From assembly GCA_965652295.1 (NCBI GenBank), contig CBFGTS010000003.1:160001-224000 (forward strand): a stretch of 64,000 nt of DNA, written 5' to 3'. This document shows positions 13,289-34,853 of the stretch, one piece after another. This stretch comes from an uncultured Haloferula sp. (GTDB taxonomy: Bacteria; Verrucomicrobiota; Verrucomicrobiia; Verrucomicrobiales; Akkermansiaceae). How positions within the stretch are numbered: the first letter of the stretch is position 1; every line of letters begins with the position of its first letter. The notes below the pieces were generated by a model. The model saw only the letters and a list, made by a program, of their open reading frames with translations, made no database searches and was not told the origin of the DNA. The translations under genes and the position numbers were made by a program.

Positions 13289-13698
13289 GCGGCTGCGCGG
13301 TCGCCTCGATGAGTTCTCTCGCGGAAGTATACCCGACTGGGATTACTCTGAACTCACACCAGATTGCCAAAAACCGGAACCTCTCCCAACCCGTGATTGG
13401 GAAAGTGATGACGGTGCTGTCGCAGCACGGCTTCGTGCACGGAACTCGGGGCCCCGGCGGGGGCTACCGGCTGGCTCGCGATCCTTCGACCATTACGATC
13501 TATGAAATCGTCGAGCTGTTCGAAGGCCATCGCGACTCCAGCTCCTGTCCCTTCGGCCCTGGCTGGTGCGGAGTCGGCGAACCCTGCCCGCTTCACGACG
13601 CGCTCGCGGCGATGAGCGAGTCCGCTGCCCAGACGCTTCGGGACATCACTTTCGCCGCATTTGTCGATCATCCCAAACAGTCGGCAGCTTCCGACTAG
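13267..13698 (+). CDS. Rrf2-family Fe-S regulator
   Basis: GTRGPGGGYRLARDP; CPFGPGWC...CPLHD. Confidence 0.85.
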   Translation: MFGYGKMSGCAVASMSSLAEVYPTGITLNSHQIAKNRNLSQPVIGKVMTVLSQHGFVHGTRGPGGGYRLARDPSTITIYEIVELFEGHRDSSSCPFGPGWCGVGEPCPLHDALAAMSESAAQTLRDITFAAFVDHPKQSAASD

Positions 13699-20752: not shown

Positions 20753-20959
20753 ATGCCTCGCACCTTGTATTCCCCCCGTTTGTCGGACGACGTCGTGCGC
20801 TCTCTCTATCGGGAGGGCAAGCGACGGCGAATGCCGATGACCCGGCTTGCCGATGAACTGCTTCGGCAGGCGCTGGGTTCCACTCCGGAGCTTCACGCTC
20901 TGGAGGACGAACCCGTCCCACGGGCTCACGCCCGTCTCCTCCAACGCGGAGCCGCCTGA
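20753..20959 (+). CDS. Small ribbon-helix-helix-like protein
   Basis: LYSPRLSDDVVRSLYREGKRRRMPMTRLADELLRQAL fits a beta-helix-helix pattern. Confidence 0.5.
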   Translation: MPRTLYSPRLSDDVVRSLYREGKRRRMPMTRLADELLRQALGSTPELHALEDEPVPRAHARLLQRGAA

Positions 20960-21055
20960 GGTTCTGCTCTCCCACACCCCCTGCGTCACGATGAAGCCCG
21001 GCAACGCGCCGGGCTTCGTCGTTTCCAACCCCTCAACTCCCAACCCCATCCCCCT

Positions 21056-21559
21056 ATGGCCATCAAACTGATCGCAAACTACAGCAAACGCCTGGGCCTC
21101 CCGGGCTACTCGAGCCACCAGTTCAGCGTCTCCGTGGAGGCTGAGCTGGTGAAGACGGACGACGTCCCGGCGGAAGCCGAACGCCTCTACCAGCTCCTTC
21201 AGACGAACGTCGATGAGCAGATCCAATCCACGGGTTTTGTCCCTCCCGGTGACTATGGGATGCAGAATCCATCCGCCGACCCGCACCCACCCGAGCCGTC
21301 TCCAAATGGAGACAACTGGAAATGCTCTGAGAAGCAGCGGGATCTCATTCTGCGGATCGTCGACGAGCACTCGCTCGACAAGAACGAGATCGACCACCTC
21401 GCCCGCCAACGCTTCGGCAAAGGTGTGCGGCAACTCAACAAGATCGAGGCCAGCGGCCTCATTGACGAACTGATCGACACCCATGGTGGCGGGCAACGGC
21501 GGACCAATGGACGTCGCGCCGCCTACGCCGGGACTCAGAACCAAGGAGGTCGTGCATGA
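21056..21559 (+). CDS. Hypothetical protein, coupled to nuclease
   Basis: YSKRLGLPGYSSHQFSVSVE N-domain; C-terminal SEKQ...EASGLIDEL helical motif; ATGA overlap. Confidence 0.7.
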   Translation: MAIKLIANYSKRLGLPGYSSHQFSVSVEAELVKTDDVPAEAERLYQLLQTNVDEQIQSTGFVPPGDYGMQNPSADPHPPEPSPNGDNWKCSEKQRDLILRIVDEHSLDKNEIDHLARQRFGKGVRQLNKIEASGLIDELIDTHGGGQRRTNGRRAAYAGTQNQGGRA

Positions 21560-22380
21560 TTGCGTTCGTCGAACAACCGGTGGCGCTCGGGATCCACCCT
21601 GCACATATCTCACCCTCGGCCGCGAAGTCGTATTTGAGCTGCTCGCTCCAGTTCTACTTCGAGCGGGTCGCCCGAATCCCGCGGCCCACATCGCCGTCCC
21701 TCCACCTGGGAAAGGCGGTGCATGCAGCGCTCCAGGCATTCCACCTCGCCCGCTGGCGTGGGGGCGACGACACGCCCGCAGCGATCGAGGCGGCCTTCAT
21801 CAAGGCCTTCGCCGAGCTGGAAGCCACCGAAGGTCCGGTGAAGTGGAAGGACGACAAGGACCGCACGAAAGCCTACGAAGCGGGATTGCGGGTGCTTGCC
21901 GCCTACCTCGACTCCGCAGAAGTGCTCAAGGGCAGGCCGACGGCCGTGGAAGTGCCGCTCACTGAAACGATCGAAGGGCTGCCGGTTCCCCTCACCGGGA
22001 CGGTGGATCTGGTCACCGGCGACATGGTGGCGGTCGATTTCAAATCGTCGGCCACCTCCCCAAATCCGAGGCTCGCGACGTTCGATCACGAACTCCAGCT
22101 CGTTGCCTACCAGCTGCTCATCGAGCGTGCCAGCGGGAGCGTCCCCAAGTCGCTCGACCTGATCTTCCTGGTGAAAACGAAGGTGCCTAAGGTGGTCCGG
22201 GTTTCCTCACCCCCGGCAACCAAGGCCCGCGTACTGCGAACGATCAACCTGCTGCGGGTGGCGGTCGATGGCATGAGCGAAGGACGCTTCCACCCGCAAC
22301 CCGGCATGCAATGCTCATGGTGTAGCTACCGCCGGGAGTGCGGGAAGTGGCCTGCAAGTCTGCACCGGGTCGCCGCCTGA
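21556..22380 (+). CDS. PD-(D/E)XK nuclease, RecB/AddB/Cas4-like with Fe-S cysteines
   Basis: ISPS...YLSCSLQFYF, GKAVHAAL, GTVDL, VDFKS, QLVAY, CSWCSYRREC. Confidence 0.85.
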   Translation: MIAFVEQPVALGIHPAHISPSAAKSYLSCSLQFYFERVARIPRPTSPSLHLGKAVHAALQAFHLARWRGGDDTPAAIEAAFIKAFAELEATEGPVKWKDDKDRTKAYEAGLRVLAAYLDSAEVLKGRPTAVEVPLTETIEGLPVPLTGTVDLVTGDMVAVDFKSSATSPNPRLATFDHELQLVAYQLLIERASGSVPKSLDLIFLVKTKVPKVVRVSSPPATKARVLRTINLLRVAVDGMSEGRFHPQPGMQCSWCSYRRECGKWPASLHRVAA

Positions 22381-22518
22381 CTCTCCATCCCGGCGGGTGC
22401 TTGCGCTCCCGCCGGGACCTGGAGATGGCAGACCTTTTCCCATATCCTGCGGGAAGGGCGACTCCACGACTGGGGTCGCCCTTTTCGCGTCCTCCAAACC
22501 AACAACCAGCCAACCATC

Positions 22519-23535
22519 ATGTCCAACGACTACAACCTCCCGCTCCTTGAAGCCGTGTGCCGCAGAGGGGTTCTGTGTGCGACCAGCATCCGCTATTGGC
22601 GGGGCTGCAAGCGCCTCAAACCTGAAGACTTGGGACTCGATCCATCCCACGTTTCCGACCGGTTGATCCAGCTCGGTCACAAACGGCTCGTCCCCAGCGA
22701 GTCGCTCTCGGCCTTCGCCCTGATCGAAAGCCGGGCTCATGCACTCGTCGAAACGGCCAGTTTTCCGTTCCTCGGGGGCATCGCCCGCTTCGTTCCGAAC
22801 CCACGGCTGTTTGGGCTCACCAACGGACTGGATCGCCTGCGCGATGAGTTCCGGCAGGCGACGCTCGACTTCGTGGCCGGCTACGGGGACCTGCGTGAGC
22901 AGGCACTCGGCGAGTGGCGCGAAGCTTCGGAACATCTCAATGGCAGTGCAGAGCACCTCCTGGCGACCATCGAGCAATCCTTTCCCCCGTCCGGGGAAAT
23001 CACCCGCAAGTTCGCGTTCGATACCCGGCTCTTCCAAATCGCGGCTCCCGAAAGCCTGCGGATCGATGTGGCCGAGTCCATCGATCAGTTGGAAATCGCC
23101 GATGAGCGCCGCCGCATCGCGGAGGACGCGGGCCGACGGCTCCAGTCCGACCTGGATGGATTCATCCGGGAAAGCGTCACCACGCTGCGTGAGGAAACCG
23201 CGCGGCTCGCCTCGGAGGTGCTGGCCACCATCAGCGGCGGTGAGGGCGGCGTGCATCAGCGCACCCTCAACCGGCTGACCAGCTTCATCGACCAGTTCCG
23301 GTCGCTGAACTTCGCTGGCGACGCCCAGTTGGAAAATACGCTGGAACGTTTCCGTCGCGATCTCCTCAGCCGCAGTGCCGAAGACTATCGCAACCAGCCG
23401 GGCGCGATGGATTCGCTGACCGATGGCCTGAGCCGTCTCCGTGAAAACGCCGTGCAGCTCGCCCGCAACGATGCCCGCGACATCATCTCCCGCTTCGGCC
23501 AGATGGGCGGGCGGAAGCTCGCTGCGGTCAGCTGA
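22519..23535 (+). CDS. DUF3150-like protein
   Basis: W.G.KRL.PEDLG...LGHKRL, FPFLGG..RFVP, RSLNFAGD pattern recalled from ICE/phage proteins. Confidence 0.55.
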   Translation: MSNDYNLPLLEAVCRRGVLCATSIRYWRGCKRLKPEDLGLDPSHVSDRLIQLGHKRLVPSESLSAFALIESRAHALVETASFPFLGGIARFVPNPRLFGLTNGLDRLRDEFRQATLDFVAGYGDLREQALGEWREASEHLNGSAEHLLATIEQSFPPSGEITRKFAFDTRLFQIAAPESLRIDVAESIDQLEIADERRRIAEDAGRRLQSDLDGFIRESVTTLREETARLASEVLATISGGEGGVHQRTLNRLTSFIDQFRSLNFAGDAQLENTLERFRRDLLSRSAEDYRNQPGAMDSLTDGLSRLRENAVQLARNDARDIISRFGQMGGRKLAAVS

Positions 23536-23857
23536 AGTGGCGCACGCCGAAACGTAAAGGGGAGGGGGCTTGGGAAACACTACTTCACCAAGCCCCATCC
23601 CCCCCGGCGGCGGGACCTCACCGCCGCCAGCCCCTCCCGATCCGTTGACATCCCCTCCCGACATCACTGCCTCTGCCCCAATCTGCCTGAATTGAAACCC
23701 TCCTCCTACCTCCTCCGCCTACTACCTCTCCGAAAGCCAAGACCCTCCCTCGAAGCCACTCTCCCCCAACTCCCCCCAACCCCGCACCAAGGGCGGCTCC
23801 ATTCACGGAGCCGCCCTTGGTGCATCCACCTCCAAACCAATCCTCATTCCCATCAAT

Positions 23858-24247
23858 ATGTCCCATTTCACCACTATCCAAACCGCCATCCGCGATCTTG
23901 ATGCCCTTCACGACGCGTGTGCTGAACTTGACGTCGAACTCCGCCTCGACACGCCGTGCCGGGGCTATGGAAGCATCATGCGTGAGGCCCACCGCACGAT
24001 CGTGCTCAAGGGGCCTTACGACATCGCCGTCGATCCAACCGGGGAAGGCAGCGATGCCTTCGGCCTCACTACCGACTGGTGGGGCGGTCACGTCGCCCGG
24101 GAGGTGGGGGCCGGCTACGGTCGGCTCCTCCAGTGCTACGGCGTCCACAAGACGATGCGCGAGGCCCGCCACCGCGGACTGCGCACCACACGGTGTGCCC
24201 AGGCTGACGGCTCCATTCTCCTCATTTTGGAAGGAGGGGCGCTGTGA
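23858..24247 (+). CDS. DUF1257 (Ycf35-like) protein
   Basis: MSHFTTIQTAIRDLDAL...YDIAV...TDWW...LLQCY...DGSILL. Confidence 0.75.
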   Translation: MSHFTTIQTAIRDLDALHDACAELDVELRLDTPCRGYGSIMREAHRTIVLKGPYDIAVDPTGEGSDAFGLTTDWWGGHVAREVGAGYGRLLQCYGVHKTMREARHRGLRTTRCAQADGSILLILEGGAL

Positions 24248-24450
24248 GCCGCAGCATCCACGTCCGCGTTTCGCCCAGCGGTGACATCGCCGTCGAGGCC
24301 TTTGGCTTTCAGGGCAAGGGTTGCGAAGACGCCACCCGGGCGATCGAGCAGGCTCTCGGTCAAAGCACGGGACGACGCTTCAAGCCGGAGCACCGGCAAT
24401 CCATGAGCGTTGTCCATCAGCTGGCTCTTGGAAAAGGGGGTGATGCATGA
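24244..24450 (+). CDS. DUF2997-like protein
   Basis: VSPSGDIAVEAFGFQGKGCEDATRAIEQALG...KPE. Confidence 0.75.
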   Translation: MSRSIHVRVSPSGDIAVEAFGFQGKGCEDATRAIEQALGQSTGRRFKPEHRQSMSVVHQLALGKGGDA

Positions 24451-24710
24451 CCACCGCCACCCTCCGCATTGACCTCCAAGGCTGCATCGATTGCCTCTAC
24501 ACCGAGGCGATCGACCTGCGCTCCTTGGGCAAGCTTGAAGTCACCCGTGCCACCGAGATCGTCTTCCATCCCGACCAACAAGCTTGGGAGGTCCGCTCGG
24601 TGTCGTCCGATGATGTCCTGTTTGCCGCTCCTTCCCGTGAGGCTTGCCTTCAGTGGGAAAGGGAAAACATGCAGCCCGGGGTCACTCCCCCTGCCGAAGC
24701 ACCAGCCTGA
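24447..24710 (+). CDS. Hypothetical protein
   Basis: ATGA-coupled; CLYTEAIDLRSLG.LEVTRATEI...SREACLQWE. Confidence 0.65.
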   Translation: MTTATLRIDLQGCIDCLYTEAIDLRSLGKLEVTRATEIVFHPDQQAWEVRSVSSDDVLFAAPSREACLQWERENMQPGVTPPAEAPA

Positions 24711-24951
24711 TCTGTGCGGCGGGAAATCCGCCCAGCAGCTCGTCCATGGAGCATTTCAGCACCTTTGCCAGGATCACCACCTCGGCGTCGGTCACCCGGC
24801 GCAGGCCGGATTCGATCTTGGCGAAGGTGCCGCGGCTCACATCCCAACCCGCCACCTGACAGCGTCCGGCAATGCTCTCCTGGGACAGCCCCGCTTCCAA
24901 GCGGAGTTTCCTCACCCGGGGTCCAACGAGATTCTGCCGTGCGCTTGCCAT
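24682..24951 (-). CDS. XRE-family HTH regulator
   Basis: NLVGPRVRKLRLEAGLSQ...SRGTFAKIESGLRRVTDAE. Confidence 0.85.
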   Translation of the reverse strand: MASARQNLVGPRVRKLRLEAGLSQESIAGRCQVAGWDVSRGTFAKIESGLRRVTDAEVVILAKVLKCSMDELLGGFPAAQIRLVLRQGE

Positions 24952-25017
24952 TGCTCCGATTGCGGAGCTTGACCCTACCTCCAACAATTGCCTCTATTGC
25001 TCCACTGTCGGAGCAAT
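24950..25017. promoter_or_regulatory. Tandem XRE operator candidates
   Basis: ATTGCTCC-GATTGC-GGAGC (24950-24968) and ATTGCTCC-ACTGTC-GGAGCAAT (24996-25017), with TTGACC between them. Confidence 0.6.
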
Positions 25018-25060
25018 CGGCAGCCTTCCAAACCCCTTCCAACCCCCACCTCCAATCACG

Positions 25061-25420
25061 ATGAAACCAACTCTATGGGTGGTCCTGCTCGTTGCGGGAT
25101 TGCTCACCGCCTGTGGTCCCAGCGAAAGCGACCTCCGCACGGAACTCAGGGAGATCGAAAGCGAAATGCTCGCGATCGAACTCGCCACCCGGGATCACAT
25201 GGCCCGGATGGACCAGGCCGCGATCAGCGCCGCAGCCGGCAGTTTCAACGCTGGATATGGCCTCACCGCAGGCGACTACGATACCGTCGGCGAAGGCATC
25301 GACGTCGCTGTCGAAGCCACCCGCCGCTACGACGTGTCCGCCTATTCCATCGAACAACTGCGCACCCGCTTCCAAAAGCTGGACGCACGCAAACAGGAAA
25401 TCCTCGATGCTCTCCAATAA
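25061..25420 (+). CDS. Lipoprotein
   Basis: Lipobox LLTAC after a hydrophobic signal. Confidence 0.65.
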   Translation: MKPTLWVVLLVAGLLTACGPSESDLRTELREIESEMLAIELATRDHMARMDQAAISAAAGSFNAGYGLTAGDYDTVGEGIDVAVEATRRYDVSAYSIEQLRTRFQKLDARKQEILDALQ

Positions 25421-25904
25421 ACAGAAGCTGCTCATTGCAGCGAAAATCAACGCGTTTACCCACCGGATGAGATCGCATCCCAATCGCTATGTCTGCGGGC
25501 TGTTCGTGGCCGTGGTGGTGGTCTTCCTCAGCTACGAAAAGTGGGCCGAGTACCAGGATTCCAAGCCCGATCCACTCAAAGAGGCCTACGCCAAGCAACA
25601 AGCTGAAGCCGAAGCGAAACGGAGACGGCAGCGGGTATATCCGGCCTACACGCCCCAGAACAGGAAAGCCATCGAAGAGTTCGACGGCCTGTTCTACGTC
25701 GCCTCGCAGATTCATTCCGATGGAGACCTTTCCGGACTGGTCGTGCGGTTACTTTCCACGGTTCCGAACGTGAACTGGTACCCCTGTAGCCCGGACCTAA
25801 GAGGAGCTGCAGCTGACATCGAGTCGATCAAAAGCGGAGACCCTCCAGACGAGGTCACCGCGAAGATCCAGACCTTTGTCGATGTCTGCAATCGCTACCG
25901 ATAG
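25407..25904 (+). CDS. Hypothetical single-TM protein
   Basis: TM YVCGLFVAVVVVFLSY; overlaps the lipoprotein stop. Confidence 0.5.
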   Translation: MLSNKQKLLIAAKINAFTHRMRSHPNRYVCGLFVAVVVVFLSYEKWAEYQDSKPDPLKEAYAKQQAEAEAKRRRQRVYPAYTPQNRKAIEEFDGLFYVASQIHSDGDLSGLVVRLLSTVPNVNWYPCSPDLRGAAADIESIKSGDPPDEVTAKIQTFVDVCNRYR

Positions 25905-26015
25905 CCTCGAATCCCCAAGGCTTCCTCCGCCCCCAGAGACCGCGGTTTCCCACGAAAGGCACCAAATCCCGAAGACCCGGGAGGGCAAAAATCCCATCTA
26001 CTTCACCCGCGTCCG

Positions 26016-26354
26016 ATGAAAAATCTTCAACGCCTCAAGCTTGCAGCTCTGCTCGCTGCCATCGCCGTCCTGTCCCTCCCTGCCGTTGCAGAACCTAGCG
26101 TTCACAAGGCAAACATCGAAGTCGCCGCCGGGCTTCCAAACAGGATGGCCTCGACCCACGTCCTCGCCGCCCGGGTCGAGCTGTTCCACAAGGACCAGCT
26201 CGGCCACTGGGTAAAGGTCAGGAGCTTCATTCGCTACGATTCTTTCGTCGGGCTCGTAACGGCCTTCGACCAGCGATCCCGGAAGGAGATTGAATACCAT
26301 CAAGGCGATTGGCGGGTTGAATGGGCACGGACCATTCACACCGAACGTGACTGA
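26016..26354 (+). CDS. Secreted hypothetical protein
   Basis: Signal peptide MKNLQRLKLAALLAAIAVLSLPAVA. Confidence 0.55.
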   Translation: MKNLQRLKLAALLAAIAVLSLPAVAEPSVHKANIEVAAGLPNRMASTHVLAARVELFHKDQLGHWVKVRSFIRYDSFVGLVTAFDQRSRKEIEYHQGDWRVEWARTIHTERD

Positions 26355-26468
26355 CTCCGATCCCCTACGCTTCCCCCTCCCCCCAGAGACCCCGGTTCCC
26401 AGCGTGGAACCGGGGTCTTCTGTTTTCACCCCCAACCTCACTTCAACCGCAACACCGCAATCTCCATC

Positions 26469-27998
26469 ATGAACCACACCCCCATCACCACCTACCTCCG
26501 CGCCGGCTACCCCGGCCTCATCCTGGTGACGTCCGAGGAGGCGCGCGCCGAGGCCGAAGTCGCCTCGGTCTGTGTCGAGCTCGACCGTCACCTCCATGCC
26601 TGGTCGTCAACCGACGGCCTCGTTGACATCGGAGCGTCCCACGCCACTCCTTGTGCTGATCCGCTGGAAGCCCTCCAACTTGTCGAGGATCTCTTCTCAG
26701 CGCGGGACACCCGACATGTCGTGCTGATGCGCGACCTTCAGCCCTATTTCGACCAGCAGGATCCGCAGCTCGTCCGCCGGCTCAAAGACCTCCTTCGCGC
26801 CGCCAAGACCACGGGTCATGCGCTCATCCTGACCGGTTGCCGATCGAAGCTGCCACCCGAACTCGAACACGAGCTCACCCGGGTCGAGCTGGCACTGCCG
26901 GATGCCGGCCAGCTTGCTGCCGTTCTCGACGGCATCCTGGCCTCCAGCGATCATCCGATATCCGATCCCACCGCACGGGAAGCGATCCTGCAAGCCGCCC
27001 TCGGGTTGACGACGATTGAAGCGGAGAATGTCTTCGCTCTGTCGATGGTCGAAACCGGACACATCGATCCAGAAGTGGTCGCGCGCGAAAAGGCCAGCCG
27101 TCTGAAAAGCGGCGGCCTCGTCGAAGTCATCGAGGCAGGCATCGGGCTCGGCGACATCGGCGGTCTCGACGAATTGAAACGATGGCTTTCCGGGCGGCGG
27201 CGCGCCTTCGGCACGACCGCCCGAAGCTACGGCCTTCCGGCCCCGAAGGGGCTGCTCATCGTCGGCATCCCCGGCACCGGCAAGAGCCTTACCGCCAAGG
27301 CTGCTGCCAGCGCTCTCCAGCTCCCGTTGCTCCGCCTCGACATGGGGCGGGTCTTTGGCGGCATCGTCGGTCAGAGCGAGGCCAACCTGCGTACGGTCAT
27401 TCACACCACTGAGGCGATCGCCCCGTGCGTGCTGTGGATTGATGAAATCGAAAAAGGATTCGCGGGTAGCAGCAACAGCGGCAGTACCGATGGCGGCACT
27501 TCCTCCCGTGTCTTCGGCTCGTTCCTGAGCTGGATGCAGGAAAAGGAGAAGCCGGTGTTCGTGGTCGCAACCGCCAACGATGTTTCCCAGCTGCCACCGG
27601 AGTTTCTGCGCAAGGGCCGGTTCGACGAGATCTTCTTCGTGGACCTCCCGGATGCAAAAGAGCGCGCGAACATCTGGGACATCGTCATCGCCCGACATGG
27701 CAGATGTCCGACGGACTTCGATCCTGTCGTCCTGGCTGGTGCGGGAGAGTCCTTCACCGGAGCGGAAATCGAAGCCGCATTCGTGGACGCGCTTCACGAG
27801 GCCTTCGCCGAAGATCGCGAACCGACCATGGCCGACATCGGTGAAGCCATCGGCCGCATCGTCCCGCTGGCGCAGCTCATGGACGGACGGATCGCCGCGC
27901 TCCGCCACTGGGCGACGGGACGTGCTCGTGAAGCGGGCACGCGCGAGATCCAATCAACGGGGAAGCGAAGTTCGCGGCGAGTCACTCCCATGAACTAA
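26469..27998 (+). CDS. Ycf46-type AAA+ ATPase
   Basis: IGGLDELKRW; Walker A GIPGTGKS; Walker B LWIDEIEK; PPEFLRKGRFDEIFFVDLP; inactive N-terminal AAA-like domain. Confidence 0.9.
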   Translation: MNHTPITTYLRAGYPGLILVTSEEARAEAEVASVCVELDRHLHAWSSTDGLVDIGASHATPCADPLEALQLVEDLFSARDTRHVVLMRDLQPYFDQQDPQLVRRLKDLLRAAKTTGHALILTGCRSKLPPELEHELTRVELALPDAGQLAAVLDGILASSDHPISDPTAREAILQAALGLTTIEAENVFALSMVETGHIDPEVVAREKASRLKSGGLVEVIEAGIGLGDIGGLDELKRWLSGRRRAFGTTARSYGLPAPKGLLIVGIPGTGKSLTAKAAASALQLPLLRLDMGRVFGGIVGQSEANLRTVIHTTEAIAPCVLWIDEIEKGFAGSSNSGSTDGGTSSRVFGSFLSWMQEKEKPVFVVATANDVSQLPPEFLRKGRFDEIFFVDLPDAKERANIWDIVIARHGRCPTDFDPVVLAGAGESFTGAEIEAAFVDALHEAFAEDREPTMADIGEAIGRIVPLAQLMDGRIAALRHWATGRAREAGTREIQSTGKRSSRRVTPMN

Positions 27999-28408
27999 CG
28001 GACGCATGACAGCCCTCCAATACTTGTGTGGCGAAAGCCACACCCGTCCCGACGAATGGGAAGAGCAAGATGGTCCGGACTCGGGCGTGGGAGTGGATCA
28101 CTGATTCCACCATCCAGACTTGGGCCTCTGGTACGTCTGCACCGATCAGGGTGTCTTGAGCGCGTCCCCAATCGAAGAGCAGCCGTGAGTCAGCTCAGGT
28201 GCCACCCCTCCGGTTGCGCTACGACTTCCTCCACTCCCTTGAACAGCCCGCTGAACGGCTGCCCCCTTTCAGCCCACGCGTTCCGGGCACTTGCGAACCG
28301 CTCCAGTTCGCCGGGGCCACCCCCCTCCGCTTCGCGGGGGGCGGCCCACCTCCTTCCTCTCTCACTGCCGTTCTCTGGCAGCGCTCCACCCCAACAACCA
28401 ATACCCCC

Positions 28409-29461
28409 ATGATAACCACACTGCATTACCGCCAAGGTTCCTCTGACAAAGTCTACCAAGTCTCCATCGACCCGGCGGACGATGGCTTCCTCGTGAACTT
28501 CGCGTATGGACGCCGTGGAGCCACGTTCAGCACTGGCTCCAAGACTCCGGCTCCCGTTTCCCGGGAAGAGGCCCAACGCCTCCACGACCGCCTTGTCGCC
28601 TCCAAGACGGCCAAGGGTTACGTCCTCACCACCGACGGCACGCCCTACAGCGGCACCGACCACGAGAGCCGCCACATCGGGATCCAGTGCCAGCTCCTCA
28701 ACCCTGTGGAGGAATCGGAAGCCTTCGATCTGCTCCGGGATCATCGTCATGTCCTTCAGGAAAAGTTCGATGGTCGCCGGTTGCTGGTTCGCCGGCAGGA
28801 TGGCGAGGTCATCGGCATCAACCGGCGCGGCCTTCAAGTGGGCCTCCCCGAACCCATCGCCAACGCCGCGAAGGATCTGCCGCTCGATTGCCTCATCGAC
28901 GGTGAGGCCATCGGCGACACCCTCCACGCCTTCGATCTGCTCGAACTGAAAGGGATTGATTTGCGTGATCGTGGCTATCTCTACCGTTTGGCGGGGCTGT
29001 TGCGATTGCTCGATCCCGGGTCCGCCATCCGCCCGGTATCCACCGTCATCGACCCTGCCGACAAGGAGGCGACGTTCCAGACGCTCCGGATCACCGGGGC
29101 AGAAGGCGTCGTGTTCAAAGACGGGGACGCACCCTACACTCCAGGTCGCCCGGCTTCCGGCGGCACTCAGCTGAAGTTCAAATTCGTGGCGAGCGCATCG
29201 TTCATCGTCTCGGCCATCAACGCCCGCCGAAGCGTGGCCCTCGCGCTCTTCGATGAGTCCATCAAGGTCCCGGCAGGCAATGTCACGATTCCCCCCAACC
29301 ATGACCTGCCATCCGCCGGGTGCGTCGTGGAGGTCCGTTACCTGTACGCCTATCGGGAAAGCGGCCGCATCTACCAGCCGGTCTACCTCGGCCGGCGGGA
29401 CGACATCCCCGTGGAGGCATGCACCGTCACGCAGCTGAAGTTCAAACCAGTGCCCTATTGA
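28409..29461 (+). CDS. WGR domain-fused ATP-dependent DNA ligase
   Basis: SSDKVY...AYGRRG (WGR); QEKFDG, IDGE, AFDLL, EGVVFKD, QLKFK; C-terminal OB fold. Confidence 0.85.
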   Translation: MITTLHYRQGSSDKVYQVSIDPADDGFLVNFAYGRRGATFSTGSKTPAPVSREEAQRLHDRLVASKTAKGYVLTTDGTPYSGTDHESRHIGIQCQLLNPVEESEAFDLLRDHRHVLQEKFDGRRLLVRRQDGEVIGINRRGLQVGLPEPIANAAKDLPLDCLIDGEAIGDTLHAFDLLELKGIDLRDRGYLYRLAGLLRLLDPGSAIRPVSTVIDPADKEATFQTLRITGAEGVVFKDGDAPYTPGRPASGGTQLKFKFVASASFIVSAINARRSVALALFDESIKVPAGNVTIPPNHDLPSAGCVVEVRYLYAYRESGRIYQPVYLGRRDDIPVEACTVTQLKFKPVPY

Positions 29462-29582: not shown

Positions 29583-30308
29583 CTACGCAAGCTTCAGATC
29601 GATCAAGCTCTTGATCTTGCGATCCAGATTGATCAGCTCCCGCAAATCACACGCAGCCAGGTGGGAGTCGATACCCGAGCGGACGGCGGTCGGAGCTGGC
29701 TCCTTTCGGCGCGGCCGACGCCGGCGCCGACGCTTGCCACTCCGCTGCGGTTCCTCCACAGGCTCTACTTGATTCTTGGCGACCGGAGATTTGACTTCGG
29801 CATCGGCCGAGCCCGTGGCGACAGATCTCATCGCAGGATCTCCGCTGGCATCAGCGCCGGTGACATCACCGCTACCACGGGGATGCTCACTCTGGACCAA
29901 TTGGGTTGCCGACTCCGTTCCTACTACATTTAAGGGGGACATCGGCACCGGTCCCGGCACGTCGGCGGCGGCCTTCGGATGGAACACGCTTGCCACCGCG
30001 GAAGACTTCTTGAGCAGCTCCGCGACATCCCTCAAGCGGACCATGTAAGGAGCTTTGGCGGCCGCCTGAGTCGCAGACAGCTTGCCTCCCTTGACCCAGT
30101 TCTTCAGGGTACTGACAGCCGCAGAAAACTCCGCCGCCGCCGCCTTCAGATTTACAGGTTCGTCCGCATAGATCACGGGCTCCTCCGAAGGCTTGGTGTT
30201 TTCGGTGGTCGGACTCACCCCTGTGCCTTCGACGTGGACCGGGAGGTTTTCCGCCACTCCGTCTGCCGCTTTTTTAAGCGGATCGGCACCGCCTTTGTTT
30301 TTGTTCAT
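29583..30308 (-). CDS. MerR/excisionase-like HTH protein with low-complexity basic tail
   Basis: NLKAAAAEFSAAVSTLKNWVKGGKLSA...YMVRLRDV; KRRRRRRPRRK tail. Confidence 0.6.
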   Translation of the reverse strand: MNKNKGGADPLKKAADGVAENLPVHVEGTGVSPTTENTKPSEEPVIYADEPVNLKAAAAEFSAAVSTLKNWVKGGKLSATQAAAKAPYMVRLRDVAELLKKSSAVASVFHPKAAADVPGPVPMSPLNVVGTESATQLVQSEHPRGSGDVTGADASGDPAMRSVATGSADAEVKSPVAKNQVEPVEEPQRSGKRRRRRRPRRKEPAPTAVRSGIDSHLAACDLRELINLDRKIKSLIDLKLA

Positions 30309-30496
30309 AGCTGAAATGTGAGAGCGGGCGAAACGATTCCCGGTTTCGCCCGGTTTCCAAAGTGGTCCGGGTACCACAGAAAGTTCCCAGCCCGAGCCGG
30401 ATGCCCGAACTGGGATTGCTACGTAATGGCCCCGGCCGGAGTGGCAGGGGCGACTCAAAGACGCTTCGTCAGCTCCTCACGGAACTGACTAGGCAG

Positions 30497-30530
30497 AAAC
30501 CCGGCGGGCACGTCTCCGCGCACCGGGCTT
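30497..30530 (-). ncRNA. Group II intron domain V
   Basis: AAGCCCGGT GCGCG GAGA CGTGC CC GCCGGGTTT: AGC triad, GNRA loop, 2-nt bulge, 34 nt. Confidence 0.85.
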
Positions 30531-30546
30531 GCTGGAAGCCATCCCG

Positions 30547-32328
30547 TCAGTGAGCGGTCGACAGGTCGACCACCCCGGTGACCGGAGGGCTGTGAGACAT
30601 TGAGCAATGATTGTGGACGACGACGGACTGCCGTTGACCCTCAGGAGTGAGGGTTCGGCACGCATCCGTGAGCAGGATCGGTCCCTCACAGTACGCACAG
30701 TGCCCCTTCTGGCGCCGAAATGCGGCCGCTTCGATGTTTAGGGGAGTCGCGTAGTAGCGGCTCCGTCTGAGGCGGAGCTGCCAGTACGGCCAGTCACTAT
30801 CGTAGTAGGACTTCCCTGGCTGAACGAGGATCTGTTTGGAGATCCCGGTGTCTGCGAGTCTCTTCAGGGTGGGGCCATTCTTCACGAACGGCGACGTGAA
30901 CGCCCAGTCGCGATTCCGCGGCGTCCCGTCCTTCCGTTTCAACGGATTTCCGTTGTGGTCCAGCTCGATCCCGCTGAAGAGACGCTTCTTGATCCATCCC
31001 GCGGACTTGTCGGAGAATCGGCGCTTTGCCCACCCTCTCAACTTCGTGTGGATCTTGTGATCCATCCGGGAGAAGGTCTCCGTGGCGTTGCTGTAGCGAT
31101 AATAGTTCGCCCAACCGCTGATCATCCGATTGAGGTGGACGATCATGATCGAGATCGGGTCCTTCCTCCCCGACTTCATCCGATGTTGTCTTGCCCCCCG
31201 GCTCTTCCGGGAGAGCTTGAGCCGGTCTGCGTAGTCGGCGATGTCGCGGTAGAACCGCTTCTCGGCGGCCTTGCTAGGCCGCACGATGAGGTATGGCCTC
31301 TTGGTTCCTCCAAATTCGGTCGTCTCATGATGCTGGAGGTGGAAGCCCAGAAAGTCGAAGCCTGCGTGGGCCTCGTTCCCGGTGCGGTCCATCGTGTGGA
31401 CGATCTTGGTTTTCTGAAGGCTCAGTCTCAGCCCGAGCCCGGCCAGGTATTCGCCAATCGCCGTCGCGCTCCACTCGACAACCGCGTGGTCGGAGTGCGC
31501 TACGACCAGGTCGTCCGCGTAGATACTGATCGCCGGCTCGCCGAGCTTCGTCACCCGTCCGCGGAACTCCTTTCGGAACTCCTGGTGTAGGTGGGGCTCA
31601 AGGCTTGCCAAGGCGACGTTCGCCAGCAGAGGCGAAAGAGGTCCGCCTTGTGGCGTCCCCTTCATCGTGGGCTCAAAGGCCACCTCACTGAGCGCTCCGG
31701 CCTTGAGGATTCTCCTCAAGGAGAGCGTGATAAGAGGTAGTCGGCTTGTCCTGCGCAGCAACTCGTCGTGATCGAGATGGTCAAAGAACTTCTCGATATC
31801 CGCATCCAGAACCCATTCAGGTCCCGTTTTTCGGAAGTGACGCTGTAGATAGCCGATCGCATCATGGGTCCCCCGGCCCTTGCGGAATCCGTATTGCCTC
31901 GGCGAGAAGCGCGCTTCCCACTCGGGCTCCAGCGCCAACGCGATTAGGGCCTGATGGGCCCTGTCGATGAGATTAGGAATACCTAGGGGGCGCTTCTCCG
32001 TCTTTCCCGGCTTGGGGATGAGGAGACGCCTCACGGCGGATGGTCGGTGGCCAGCGTCGAGCTGCTCCGCCATGCGGAACCGCTGAACGGGCGTGGGACT
32101 CTCTACACCGTCGATGCCGGCGGTCTTCTTGCCTGAGCTGCTCTGGGCCACCTGCCTGACGGCAAGCAGCTTCGCTTGGAAGCTCCCGAGCAGCCGGCGC
32201 TGATACCGGTGTATTGCTTCAATGTCATCACGCAATGCCGCGTCGAAGACGTTCCGTTGCAGTTTGGTGACGTAGCGCCTGACCTCGGGCCAGTCGACAT
32301 CACCCCATCGATTGATTTCGCTTTTCAT
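30547..32328 (-). CDS. Group II intron-type reverse transcriptase/maturase
   Basis: RVT_N (WGDVDW...KLQ...GKKTAGIDG), IPKPGKTEKRPLGIP, YGFRKGR, DADIEKFFD, GTPQGGPLSPLLAN, YADD, FDFLGF, X domain GWANYY; C-terminal CAYC without a clear HNH. Confidence 0.95.
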   Translation of the reverse strand: MKSEINRWGDVDWPEVRRYVTKLQRNVFDAALRDDIEAIHRYQRRLLGSFQAKLLAVRQVAQSSSGKKTAGIDGVESPTPVQRFRMAEQLDAGHRPSAVRRLLIPKPGKTEKRPLGIPNLIDRAHQALIALALEPEWEARFSPRQYGFRKGRGTHDAIGYLQRHFRKTGPEWVLDADIEKFFDHLDHDELLRRTSRLPLITLSLRRILKAGALSEVAFEPTMKGTPQGGPLSPLLANVALASLEPHLHQEFRKEFRGRVTKLGEPAISIYADDLVVAHSDHAVVEWSATAIGEYLAGLGLRLSLQKTKIVHTMDRTGNEAHAGFDFLGFHLQHHETTEFGGTKRPYLIVRPSKAAEKRFYRDIADYADRLKLSRKSRGARQHRMKSGRKDPISIMIVHLNRMISGWANYYRYSNATETFSRMDHKIHTKLRGWAKRRFSDKSAGWIKKRLFSGIELDHNGNPLKRKDGTPRNRDWAFTSPFVKNGPTLKRLADTGISKQILVQPGKSYYDSDWPYWQLRLRRSRYYATPLNIEAAAFRRQKGHCAYCEGPILLTDACRTLTPEGQRQSVVVHNHCSMSHSPPVTGVVDLSTAH

Positions 32329-33159
32329 GGTTCTAATGATTTCGGTTCGTTCCGATGCGCTCCCGCGACCAGTTTTGCGTATCCCGGGCACTACCCCGGG
32401 CCTTTGCTTGGTGGTGCACCTGCCCGACGGCAGCATGCGGCCATGAGCCTGCTCGCCGCTTTCGCGGAGAGAGCCGGCGTCGGTGACCACGTTCCGGGAG
32501 AGCATGATTTCGCGGGGCTCGGACGAGGGCATCCCACCGAGGTCTGGCCGGTGATCCAGCGGAGAACCCGCTCCGTTGGTGCCCTTCCACCCGGCGAACC
32601 GGGGTTCTCGACCTAAGTTTACGTGTTTACGATGGCTTGTATCCCTTTCCTTGTAGTCGTCGTTGCCCCACCTGAGTGCGCCGGCTGCATTGCCGACGCG
32701 TTTCCCCCCGCTACAGCCCGCCGGCCCTTCATGGCGGTCGGCAGGTCGAGGGGGTCTTTGCATCGATCACCGCGATGGCGGGAGTTGTGCGACGGTGACC
32801 GCCACACTCACCCGCATGCTCTACCGACATCAACGTGGGGGTCGGACCCCCAGTTGTCACCCATCCCCCGCCTGTTGGCGGTTTCGGGTCATCGTGTCGC
32901 TTATGAGATTACGTGATTCTGACATTCGCAGGCATTCTGATGTCGGGCTGCCTGCGGGCCCTCTCGTCTGTCAAAGAGCTTCCGTTTCAGGATCACAACA
33001 CAGGAGGCGAGCCACCTGCACAGGAACCTGAAGAGGAGCACTGGGCGCCTCCCGGAACGGCGTAGCCTCTTCGCAACCCCCGGTCGCCCGGGTGGCCACG
33101 GCGATTGCCACCACCGATGTATGTTCCGGCCGCGGAGGACCGGGAGTGATCCCGTCCGG

Positions 33160-33441
33160 TTACCCAATGACGATGCCGAGGGCCTTGACTACCGCTGCTG
33201 GGTTGAACCTCACCGTCCGGCCCGACCGAAGGGCCGCAGGGATCTTCCCCTGGGCCTCCCACTCAAGGATGGTCCGTGAGGTGACCTGGAGCGCATCGCC
33301 AATCTGGGTCGCCGTTGAGGGAGCCGGAAGCGGCACGCCATCGCGTCCCCGGAGGACGAAGTCCCCAGAGGTGTCGGTGGTGTAGCCGTTCGGTTTCACG
33401 AGGCGGAACTGACAATGCAGTCGGCTACGCTGCAAGGCCAA
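33160..33441 (-). CDS. Excisionase-like HTH protein
   Basis: TATQIGDALQVTSRTILEWEAQGKIPAALRSGRTVRFNPAAV; start uncertain. Confidence 0.65.
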   Translation of the reverse strand: MALQRSRLHCQFRLVKPNGYTTDTSGDFVLRGRDGVPLPAPSTATQIGDALQVTSRTILEWEAQGKIPAALRSGRTVRFNPAAVVKALGIVIG

Positions 33442-34654: not shown

Positions 34655-34768
34655 CATTCTGGAGGCCACCCGCCCTCTACGATGCCAGTTCGGATTTTAA
34701 GGGCAGTTTTCGGGCATCGCCAAATAGAACCCCCTCCGCCCTACTAGCGTAACTCTTTGATCATAAGA

Positions 34769-34853
34769 TGCCACCGGGGGGACTCGAACCCCCACGCCGG
34801 TTGCCCGGCAGCGGATTTTAAGTCCGCGGCGTCTACCATTCCGCCACGGTGGC
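34769..34853 (-). tRNA. tRNA-Leu(TAA)
   Basis: GCCACCGTGGCGGAATGGTAGACGCCGCGGACTTAAAATCCGC...GGTTCGAGTCCCCCCGGTGGCA; long variable arm; CCA not encoded. Confidence 0.95.

What the first reader, a model, noticed from the sequence alone, without database searches (positions are those of the whole stretch)
30310..33160. Group II intron-derived RT and ribozyme core that appears to have lost both splice ends
Seen: an intact 593-aa RT/maturase (YADD, X domain) and a canonical 34-nt domain V with the AGC triad at 30497-30530. Where domain VI should be, there is only a GTCAGTTCC-GTGA-GGAGCTGAC hairpin (30468-30489). It has no clean basal stem with a bulged A and no terminal AY. I found no GUGYG in the upstream region; the best look-alikes are AAGCGACACGATG at 32902 (574 nt before the ATG) and TTGCG at 33076. 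The C-terminus keeps CAYC but has no recognisable HNH histidines. Extra hairpins extend on both sides (30322-30416; 32910-33110). Inference: catalytic RNA and RT are retained while branching, splicing and endonuclease determinants are eroded. This suggests either a domesticated non-splicing RNP or a hydrolytic/linear variant, although a recently dead intron is also possible.
Basis: partly seen in the sequence, partly recalled or inferred. Interest (0 to 1): 0.78.

Follow-up and report, generated by a model that had tools for sequence, protein, structure and literature searches.

The report
Lariat-less intron keeping active reverse transcriptase
This is one member of a family of bacterial self-splicing introns that sit at one fixed spot in genomic islands; they have lost the usual branch-forming and DNA-cutting parts yet keep an intact copying enzyme, a combination earlier examples did not show.

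Summary
The RT (30547-32328, -) belongs to a Verrucomicrobiae clade (118 of 163 sequences in my tree) sister to chloroplast-like group II introns. YADD is kept in 117 of 118; the HNH motif is gone in all 110 with a C-terminus, though a CxxC..HxxC finger remains; dN/dS is 0.12-0.28. In 23 loci the 5' motif is never GUGYG. Domain VI is a conserved hairpin with no conserved branch A, followed by an RYC end in 22 of 22. The EBS1 loop pairs 3-5 bp with a site 2-4 nt upstream of the 5' motif (thinned test, p about 0.04). This matches the hydrolytic-splicing pattern of C.te.I1 and mitochondrial rRNA introns, which all lost their RT. The element sits in an island slot: excisionase-like gene, boxA-like leader, intron, co-diverging HTH gene. 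No clear empty allele was found. Best reading: an immobile, island-domesticated linear-splicing RNP whose polymerase is still used (0.45). Main rival: lariat-free homing limited to that slot (0.30). Splicing was not observed; no RNA run was listed.

The parts
33160..33441 (-). excisionase-like HTH gene upstream of the intron
   Evidence: HTH_17 E 1e-4, TIGR01764 E 8e-5, both below curated cut-offs; an HTH gene in this place in 16 of 23 clade loci by my reading
32969..32979 (-). boxA-like antitermination motif (GCUCUUUGACA) in the untranslated leader
   Evidence: within 2 mismatches in 20 of 23 loci, exact in 11 (motif derived from these loci); 6 exact sites in the 4.37-Mb genome, one in a CRISPR leader; a match lies in an rrn 16S-23S spacer of G137
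32906..32910 (-). predicted IBS1 (AAUCU); inferred 5' splice site 32906|32905
   Evidence: pairs 5 bp (two G-U) with the EBS1 loop; clade tests
32898..32905 (-). 3-nt 5' spacer (CAU) plus AAGCG in place of GUGYG
   Evidence: AAGCG 10, CUGCG 8, AAUCG 3, UAUCG 1, AUGCG 1 of 23 loci
32487..32897 (-). domain I, with a long-range pseudoknot (32765-32772 with 32549-32556)
   Evidence: alignment; pseudoknot complementarity above permutation, p 0.0004, 23 of 28 loci anchored, relatedness not controlled
32560..32575 (-). ID3 hairpin; EBS1 GGGUU at 32565-32569
   Evidence: same position as the EBS1 hairpin of canonical introns L233 and L224, whose loops pair with the exon next to GUGCG (my reading)
32365..32484 (-). 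domain II, J2/3 (AGGU, 32418-32421) and domain III
   Evidence: conserved blocks; compensatory DIII basal stem read by eye
30547..32328 (-). RT/maturase, 593 aa: RT, YADD, X, DNA-binding region, CxxC..HxxC finger without HNH catalytic motif
   Evidence: model pLDDT 81.6, best fold match group II maturase 8FLI/6ME0
30497..30530 (-). domain V with AGC triad, CC bulge, GNRA loop
   Evidence: 14 pairs, 100% of cells paired, 4 with two-sided changes in 8 close loci
30463..30494 (-). domain VI without branch A: 2-bp base, 3x3 loop, 9-bp stem, GUGA loop
   Evidence: 12 pairs, 89.5% paired, 8 with two-sided changes
30460..30462 (-). inferred 3' end GUC; last nucleotide C 30460
   Evidence: RYC follows DVI in 22 of 22 clade loci with a DV, read by eye
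30326..30415 (-). two 3'-flank hairpins (one terminator-like)
   Evidence: strong hairpins here in most loci but not conserved in sequence
29583..30308 (-). downstream HTH gene (HTH2, 241 aa)
   Evidence: in 20 of 22 clade loci with a DV; distances track the RT, rho 0.63, p 2e-4, 18 loci
34765..34853 (-). tRNA-Leu and att repeat: right end of an island of about 66 kb
   Evidence: integrase at the far end, L239:2097-3287

Best explanation
A chloroplast-like group IIB intron that settled long ago in the backbone of a family of Verrucomicrobiae genomic islands and has been inherited with its downstream HTH gene since. Shown: intact ribozyme core, lost branch A, lost G1 and penultimate A, dead HNH, conserved RT active site, fixed slot. 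Inferred: (1) it is transcribed from the excisionase operon, with boxA protecting the long untranslated RNA from Rho; (2) helped by the maturase, it cuts the 5' site at 32906|32905 with water and joins the leader to the exon after 30460, releasing a linear RNP and a processed HTH2 mRNA; (3) with no lariat or nuclease it does not spread, so the polymerase is kept because the island uses it. My guess for that use is cDNA synthesis or end repair in island DNA transactions; nuclease, DUF932 and WGR-ligase genes recur nearby. Step 2 I put at about 0.7; the exact use in step 3 is weakly supported.
For: Clade-wide ends. DV/DVI covariation, 0 of 500 shuffles reach the score. Shifted EBS1-IBS1: p 0.0008 for 19 loci; p 0.042 for 14 thinned loci after correcting for offset choice. 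EBS2-IBS2 seen in 5 canonical controls (p 0.009), not in 15 clade loci (p 0.11). YADD 117 of 118; HNH motif 0 of 110 against 28 of 28 in the sister group. dN/dS 0.12-0.28 in 16 pairs, 0.18-0.28 in the 11 with dS below 0.75. One match per positive genome. HTH2 found in 8 of 401 family genomes, 7 of them the RT-positive ones. In 9 of 15 pair comparisons DNA homology runs 28 nt or more past the 5' motif. PMC4024640 links this set of changes to immobility.
Against: No splicing or cDNA was observed. EBS1-IBS1 is only 2-3 bp in 5 of 19 loci (L207, L208, L212, L213, L214), the register was chosen after looking, and G-rich loops pair easily with U/C-rich flanks. I found no EBS3-IBS3 covariation by eye. 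The HTH2 profile was built from occupied loci, so the 7 matches are partly circular, and 5 of 25 clusters remain unmatched and could be empty alleles. L218 and L237 lack HTH2; 7 loci lack the upstream HTH gene, and that gene varies in type. An unrelated canonical intron (L224) occupies the same slot, so the slot can be invaded. No island function for the RT is shown.
Confidence: 0.45

Rival explanations
1. A selfish lariat-free retroelement confined to this island slot: the linear intron joins its 3' end to target DNA, the RT copies it, and the 5' junction is closed by template switching or a ligase.
For: Polymerase site, DNA-binding region and finger are all kept; copying its own RNA is the simplest use. 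Linear retrohoming works in eukaryotic test systems (PMC3280974, abstract). Spacer length varies, 2-4 nt. L224 shows the slot is a target. In L202 vs L209 homology starts at the intron 5' end but runs on past the 3' end. A WGR-ligase gene lies next door.
Against: No clear empty allele; RT and HTH2 co-diverge; flanks are shared in most close pairs; L202/L208 may carry a decayed boxA at -60, which points to drift rather than a new site; PMC4024640 argues that branching cannot be lost by mobile introns.
Confidence: 0.3
2. A non-splicing or cleave-only RT-ncRNA system: the ribozyme only cuts, or only scaffolds the RT, which makes a cDNA product as retrons or DRTs do.
For: Penultimate A and the bases after the last C are not conserved; no EBS3 support; boxA-like leader typical of long non-coding RNA; several islands carry defence-type cargo (HsdM, SIR2, HEPN/RES).
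Against: The last C and a candidate gamma G in J2/3 are conserved, as expected if exons are ligated; Drt and retron models score far below their cut-offs; no effector domain in HTH2.
Confidence: 0.13
3. An ordinary branching IIB intron with a cryptic branch site (the A of ACC at the base of DVI, or an A of the purine loop).
For: L223 can be drawn with a bulged A and 2 bp below it; an A follows DVI in most loci of the second subclade.
Against: That A is absent from all 9 loci of the window's subclade and L216 has no stem below it; G1 is lost in 23 of 23.
Confidence: 0.08
4. A recently dead intron.
For: This copy has a weak DVI base and a bulged DIII stem; L222 is a truncated relic.
Against: Features are shared across four families; purifying selection in all 16 pairs.
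Confidence: 0.03

Closest known systems
Chloroplast-like (CL) group IIB introns (cyanobacterial plasmid introns L233, L235, L236; maturase of PDB 6ME0/8FLI)
   Same: Sister group in the RT tree, 35-38% identity, best PDB sequence and fold match, same domain order and position of the EBS1 hairpin.
   Different: No GUGYG, branch A, AY end or HNH motif; EBS2-IBS2 not detected; one match per genome in a fixed intergenic island slot.
C.te.I1 of Clostridium tetani and the mitochondrial rRNA introns of Li et al. 2011 (as described in PMC4024640, discussion sections read)
   Same: 5' site upstream of the GUGYG-like motif, no branch A, no EBS2-IBS2; hydrolytic splicing expected.
   Different: Those lost the RT; here it is intact and selected. 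The GNRA loop of DVI is kept (C.te.I1 lost it), the GU itself is replaced, and no reading frames are fused.
Group IIC introns (recalled, apart from the PMC4748821 abstract)
   Same: Short IBS1, no EBS2, no working endonuclease, hydrolysis-prone, context-specific intergenic sites.
   Different: IIC introns keep a branch point and are mobile; this RT is CL-type (31% to the genome's other intron RT) with a large IIB-type domain I.
Group II-like RTs such as G2L4 (function recalled; structures)
   Same: Group II-derived RT kept without signs of spread.
   Different: G2L RTs lack the intron RNA (recalled); here the whole ribozyme is conserved, and G2L4 is a weak match (E 2.5e-10 against 6.5e-84).

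Membership tests
Mobile CL/IIB group II intron | Domain V with AGC triad and DI-DIII in normal order | tested here: met
Mobile CL/IIB group II intron | RT with YADD and X domain of CL lineage | tested here: met
   TIGR04416 269.9 bits, below its cut-off of 300; CL subclass not assigned
Mobile CL/IIB group II intron | 5' GUGYG | tested here: not met
   0 of 23 clade loci
Mobile CL/IIB group II intron | Bulged branch A in DVI and AY end | tested here: not met
   RYC end in 22 of 22 by my placement; L223 ambiguous
Mobile CL/IIB group II intron | IBS1 directly next to the 5' motif | tested here: not met
   offset 0 is not above chance, p 0.92
Mobile CL/IIB group II intron | HNH endonuclease | tested here: not met
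   0 of 110 against 28 of 28
Mobile CL/IIB group II intron | Retromobility (several sites, empty alleles) | tested here: inconclusive
   one match per genome; no clear empty allele; 5 of 25 HTH2 clusters unmatched
Derived hydrolytic introns (C.te.I1 / Li et al. type) | 5' splice site shifted upstream with EBS1-IBS1 kept | tested here: met
   modest support: p 0.0008 unthinned, 0.042 thinned and corrected
Derived hydrolytic introns (C.te.I1 / Li et al. type) | Loss of EBS2-IBS2 | tested here: inconclusive
   not above chance, p 0.11; one anchor misplaced; single loci pair 4-6 bp
Derived hydrolytic introns (C.te.I1 / Li et al. type) | Loss of the RT ORF | tested here: not met
Derived hydrolytic introns (C.te.I1 / Li et al. 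type) | Splicing by hydrolysis only | not testable with these tools
   no RNA run listed
G2L / retron / DRT stand-alone RTs | No group II ribozyme around the RT | tested here: not met

The most novel reading that the evidence does not exclude
The island family uses a group II ribozyme-RT as a core working part: under boxA antitermination the ribozyme cuts its transcript by hydrolysis, and the freed 3'-OH or the linear RNP primes DNA synthesis that copies or mobilises island DNA, including the downstream HTH gene. It would sit where satellites usually carry a primase-replicase (recalled), making it an intron turned into an island replication or transfer module.
Probability: 0.12. Interest if true: 0.9.

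Novelty: new variant of a known kind. Interest (0 to 1): 0.68.

Why it matters
The cases I read of group II introns that lost branching also lost their RT, and PMC4024640 argues that mobile introns cannot lose branching. Here a lineage of about a hundred protein clusters keeps both an intact ribozyme and a selected polymerase site without branch point or nuclease. Either natural lariat-free homing exists in bacteria, or a genomic island has domesticated a whole intron RNP. Predicted junctions (32906|32905 and after 30460) make both testable at once. No description of this clade turned up in my searches (Miura et al. PMC8919778 passages have no mention of Verrucomicrobia); the library lacks most subscription papers and I read no supplements, where these RTs may be listed.

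Tried and rejected
The search for related loci with P0001 or A1 returned only distant generic introns; those served as outgroups. A DV pattern scan of viral contigs found nothing; a DUF5131 query gave one distant locus, not examined. No RNA holder was listed, which is no evidence either way. The search for short RT forms listed mostly CL fragments and did not resolve the 5 unmatched HTH2 clusters. Complements of the EBS1 loop elsewhere, including just before DV, were not positionally consistent. EBS3-IBS3 could not be assigned even in controls (by eye). Circular permutation was rejected because domain order is normal. A 3' extension (domain 7) was rejected because downstream hairpins share no sequence. 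An exon fusion in frame with HTH2 was checked by hand for L202 only and fails. No sigma-70 promoter was found. The weak HTH2 hit in G336 has no intron or shared leader. The window's 309-aa ORF matches the corresponding ORF of L213 only marginally, and its island integrase does not match that of L211. Earlier-findings look-ups returned nothing.

Full report
Observation. The RT is the only copy of its kind in the genome; a second, unrelated intron RT of 31% identity lies on C35. Rfam scores DV-DVI at 29.4 bits, under the gathering score, but the stretch folds at z = -4.4.

Relatives. A protein search listed 120 of 5939 hits; about 40 full-length ones are 51-80% identical, with source names from Verrucomicrobia where given. 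Genome searches found the RT in 7 of 401 family genomes, 5 of 209 in one genus, 15 of 401 in the order and 2 of 186 in the class, one match per positive genome (the tool warns that matches are not copy numbers). I analysed the window, 23 loci with up to 20 kb and L237. L220 ends before DV and L222 is a truncated fragment; both drop out of 3'-end counts.

Protein. A FastTree tree of 163 sequences and 552 columns, biased towards the best hits of this RT, gives a clade of 118 (SH-like 0.94) sister to 30 CL-type sequences that include cyanobacterial plasmid introns; L224 falls outside both. YADD is present in 117 of 118. Of 110 clade members with a C-terminus, 108 keep CxxC..HxxC and none has the HNH motif, against 28 of 28 in the sister group. 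Nei-Gojobori dN/dS is 0.12-0.28 in 16 chosen pairs, five of them near saturation. The closest solved protein by sequence and fold is the 6ME0/8FLI maturase.

RNA. DI-DIII blocks are conserved, with a covarying pseudoknot and covarying DV and DVI in 8 close loci (relatedness can inflate such scores). The 5' motif is never GUGYG in 23 loci. DVI is a GNRA-capped hairpin without a conserved bulged A, and by my placement RYC follows it in 22 of 22, so the last C is kept while the penultimate A is lost. That G1 and the penultimate A interact only after lariat formation is recalled (Chanfreau and Jacquier 1993), not from a call. I identified the EBS1 hairpin by position against canonical introns L233 and L224. 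Its loop does not pair next to the 5' motif (p 0.92) but does 2-4 nt upstream: p 0.0008 in 19 loci, 0.042 in 14 thinned loci after allowing for the choice of offset; over offsets 0-8 the unthinned p is 0.03-0.05. L205, L206, L219 and L220 were left out because I did not place their loop. Five of 19 loci pair only 2-3 bp. L215 against L237, and the window against L202, show two-sided changes. EBS2-IBS2 is detected in 5 canonical controls, not in 15 clade loci. This is the set of changes that PMC4024640 (discussion sections read) describes for C.te.I1 and the introns of Li et al. 2011, which splice by hydrolysis and all lack an RT.

Context. The window copy lies at one end of an island of about 66 kb bounded by a 61-bp tRNA-Leu repeat, with an integrase at the other end. 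An excisionase-like gene precedes the intron in 16 of 23 loci and an HTH gene follows it in 20 of 22; DUF5131, integrase, PD-(D/E)XK, DUF932 and WGR-ligase genes recur. A motif between the E. coli and B. subtilis boxA consensus sequences (PMC13753749, passages read) lies 35-77 nt upstream in 19 loci and at -99 in one doubtful case. The same motif occurs in this genome's CRISPR leader and in an rrn spacer of G137 (1 of the 30 matches fetched), which supports but does not prove the boxA reading. RT and HTH2 distances correlate (rho 0.63). HTH2 was found in the 7 RT-positive genomes and weakly in one other of 401 (profile built from occupied loci). Of 25 HTH2 clusters on contigs of 5 kb or more, 20 pair with an RT and 5 do not. 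Against strict linkage: L218 and L237 lack HTH2, the upstream gene varies in type, homology between L202 and L209 begins at the intron 5' end, and the unrelated canonical intron L224 sits in the same slot.

Mechanism. I infer hydrolytic cleavage at 32906|32905 and ligation after 30460, giving a linear RNP (about 0.7). The direct evidence favours immobility, while retention of YADD shows the polymerase is used; that maturase-only proteins lose this motif is recalled. I therefore rank island domestication (0.45) above slot-limited lariat-free homing (0.30; linear homing is described for eukaryotic test systems in the PMC3280974 abstract), then a cleave-only RT-ncRNA system (0.13), cryptic branching (0.08) and a dead intron (0.03). 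No RNA run was listed, so every splicing step is inference.

Verdict. It works like the derived hydrolytic group II introns but fails their loss-of-RT feature, and it fails the end, branch and nuclease features of mobile CL introns. It is a new variant of a known kind; interest 0.68. Other papers were seen only as search listings or abstracts (PMC12584367 outline and abstract; PMC8919778 passages); no supplements were read.

Noticed in passing
window 34765-34853 and G000:C3:128883-128972: Island of about 66 kb between two tRNA-Leu(TAA) copies, carrying respiratory and nitrogen-metabolism genes, a ribonucleotide reductase, and a CARF-domain protein beside the integrase.
   Followed up: partly
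window 20753-29461: Backbone cluster of PD-(D/E)XK nuclease, DUF3150, AAA ATPase and WGR-ATP-dependent ligase; parts recur near related introns.
   Followed up: partly
L224:8513-10900 (G607): An unrelated intron with canonical ends and a bulged A sits in the same integrase-ORF-slot-HTH-DUF5131 arrangement, an apparent independent invasion.
   Followed up: partly
G000:C35 (1864 nt): A whole contig is a second group II intron with a canonical-looking DV/DVI end; it may be a collapsed multi-copy repeat.
   Followed up: no
G000:C14, minus strand near 13502: A boxA-like motif precedes several hundred bases that look non-coding and structured; a possible long leader or ncRNA.
   Followed up: no
G000:C8, minus strand near 205778: boxA-like motif in the leader of a CRISPR array.
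   Followed up: partly
L202, L208, L209 and several proteins: In many relatives the RT frame has lost its stop and reads through DV and DVI.
   Followed up: no
L202 and L208, about 60 nt before the 5' motif: The boxA-like motif is missing or decayed and the excisionase-like ORF runs to within 40 nt of the intron.
   Followed up: partly
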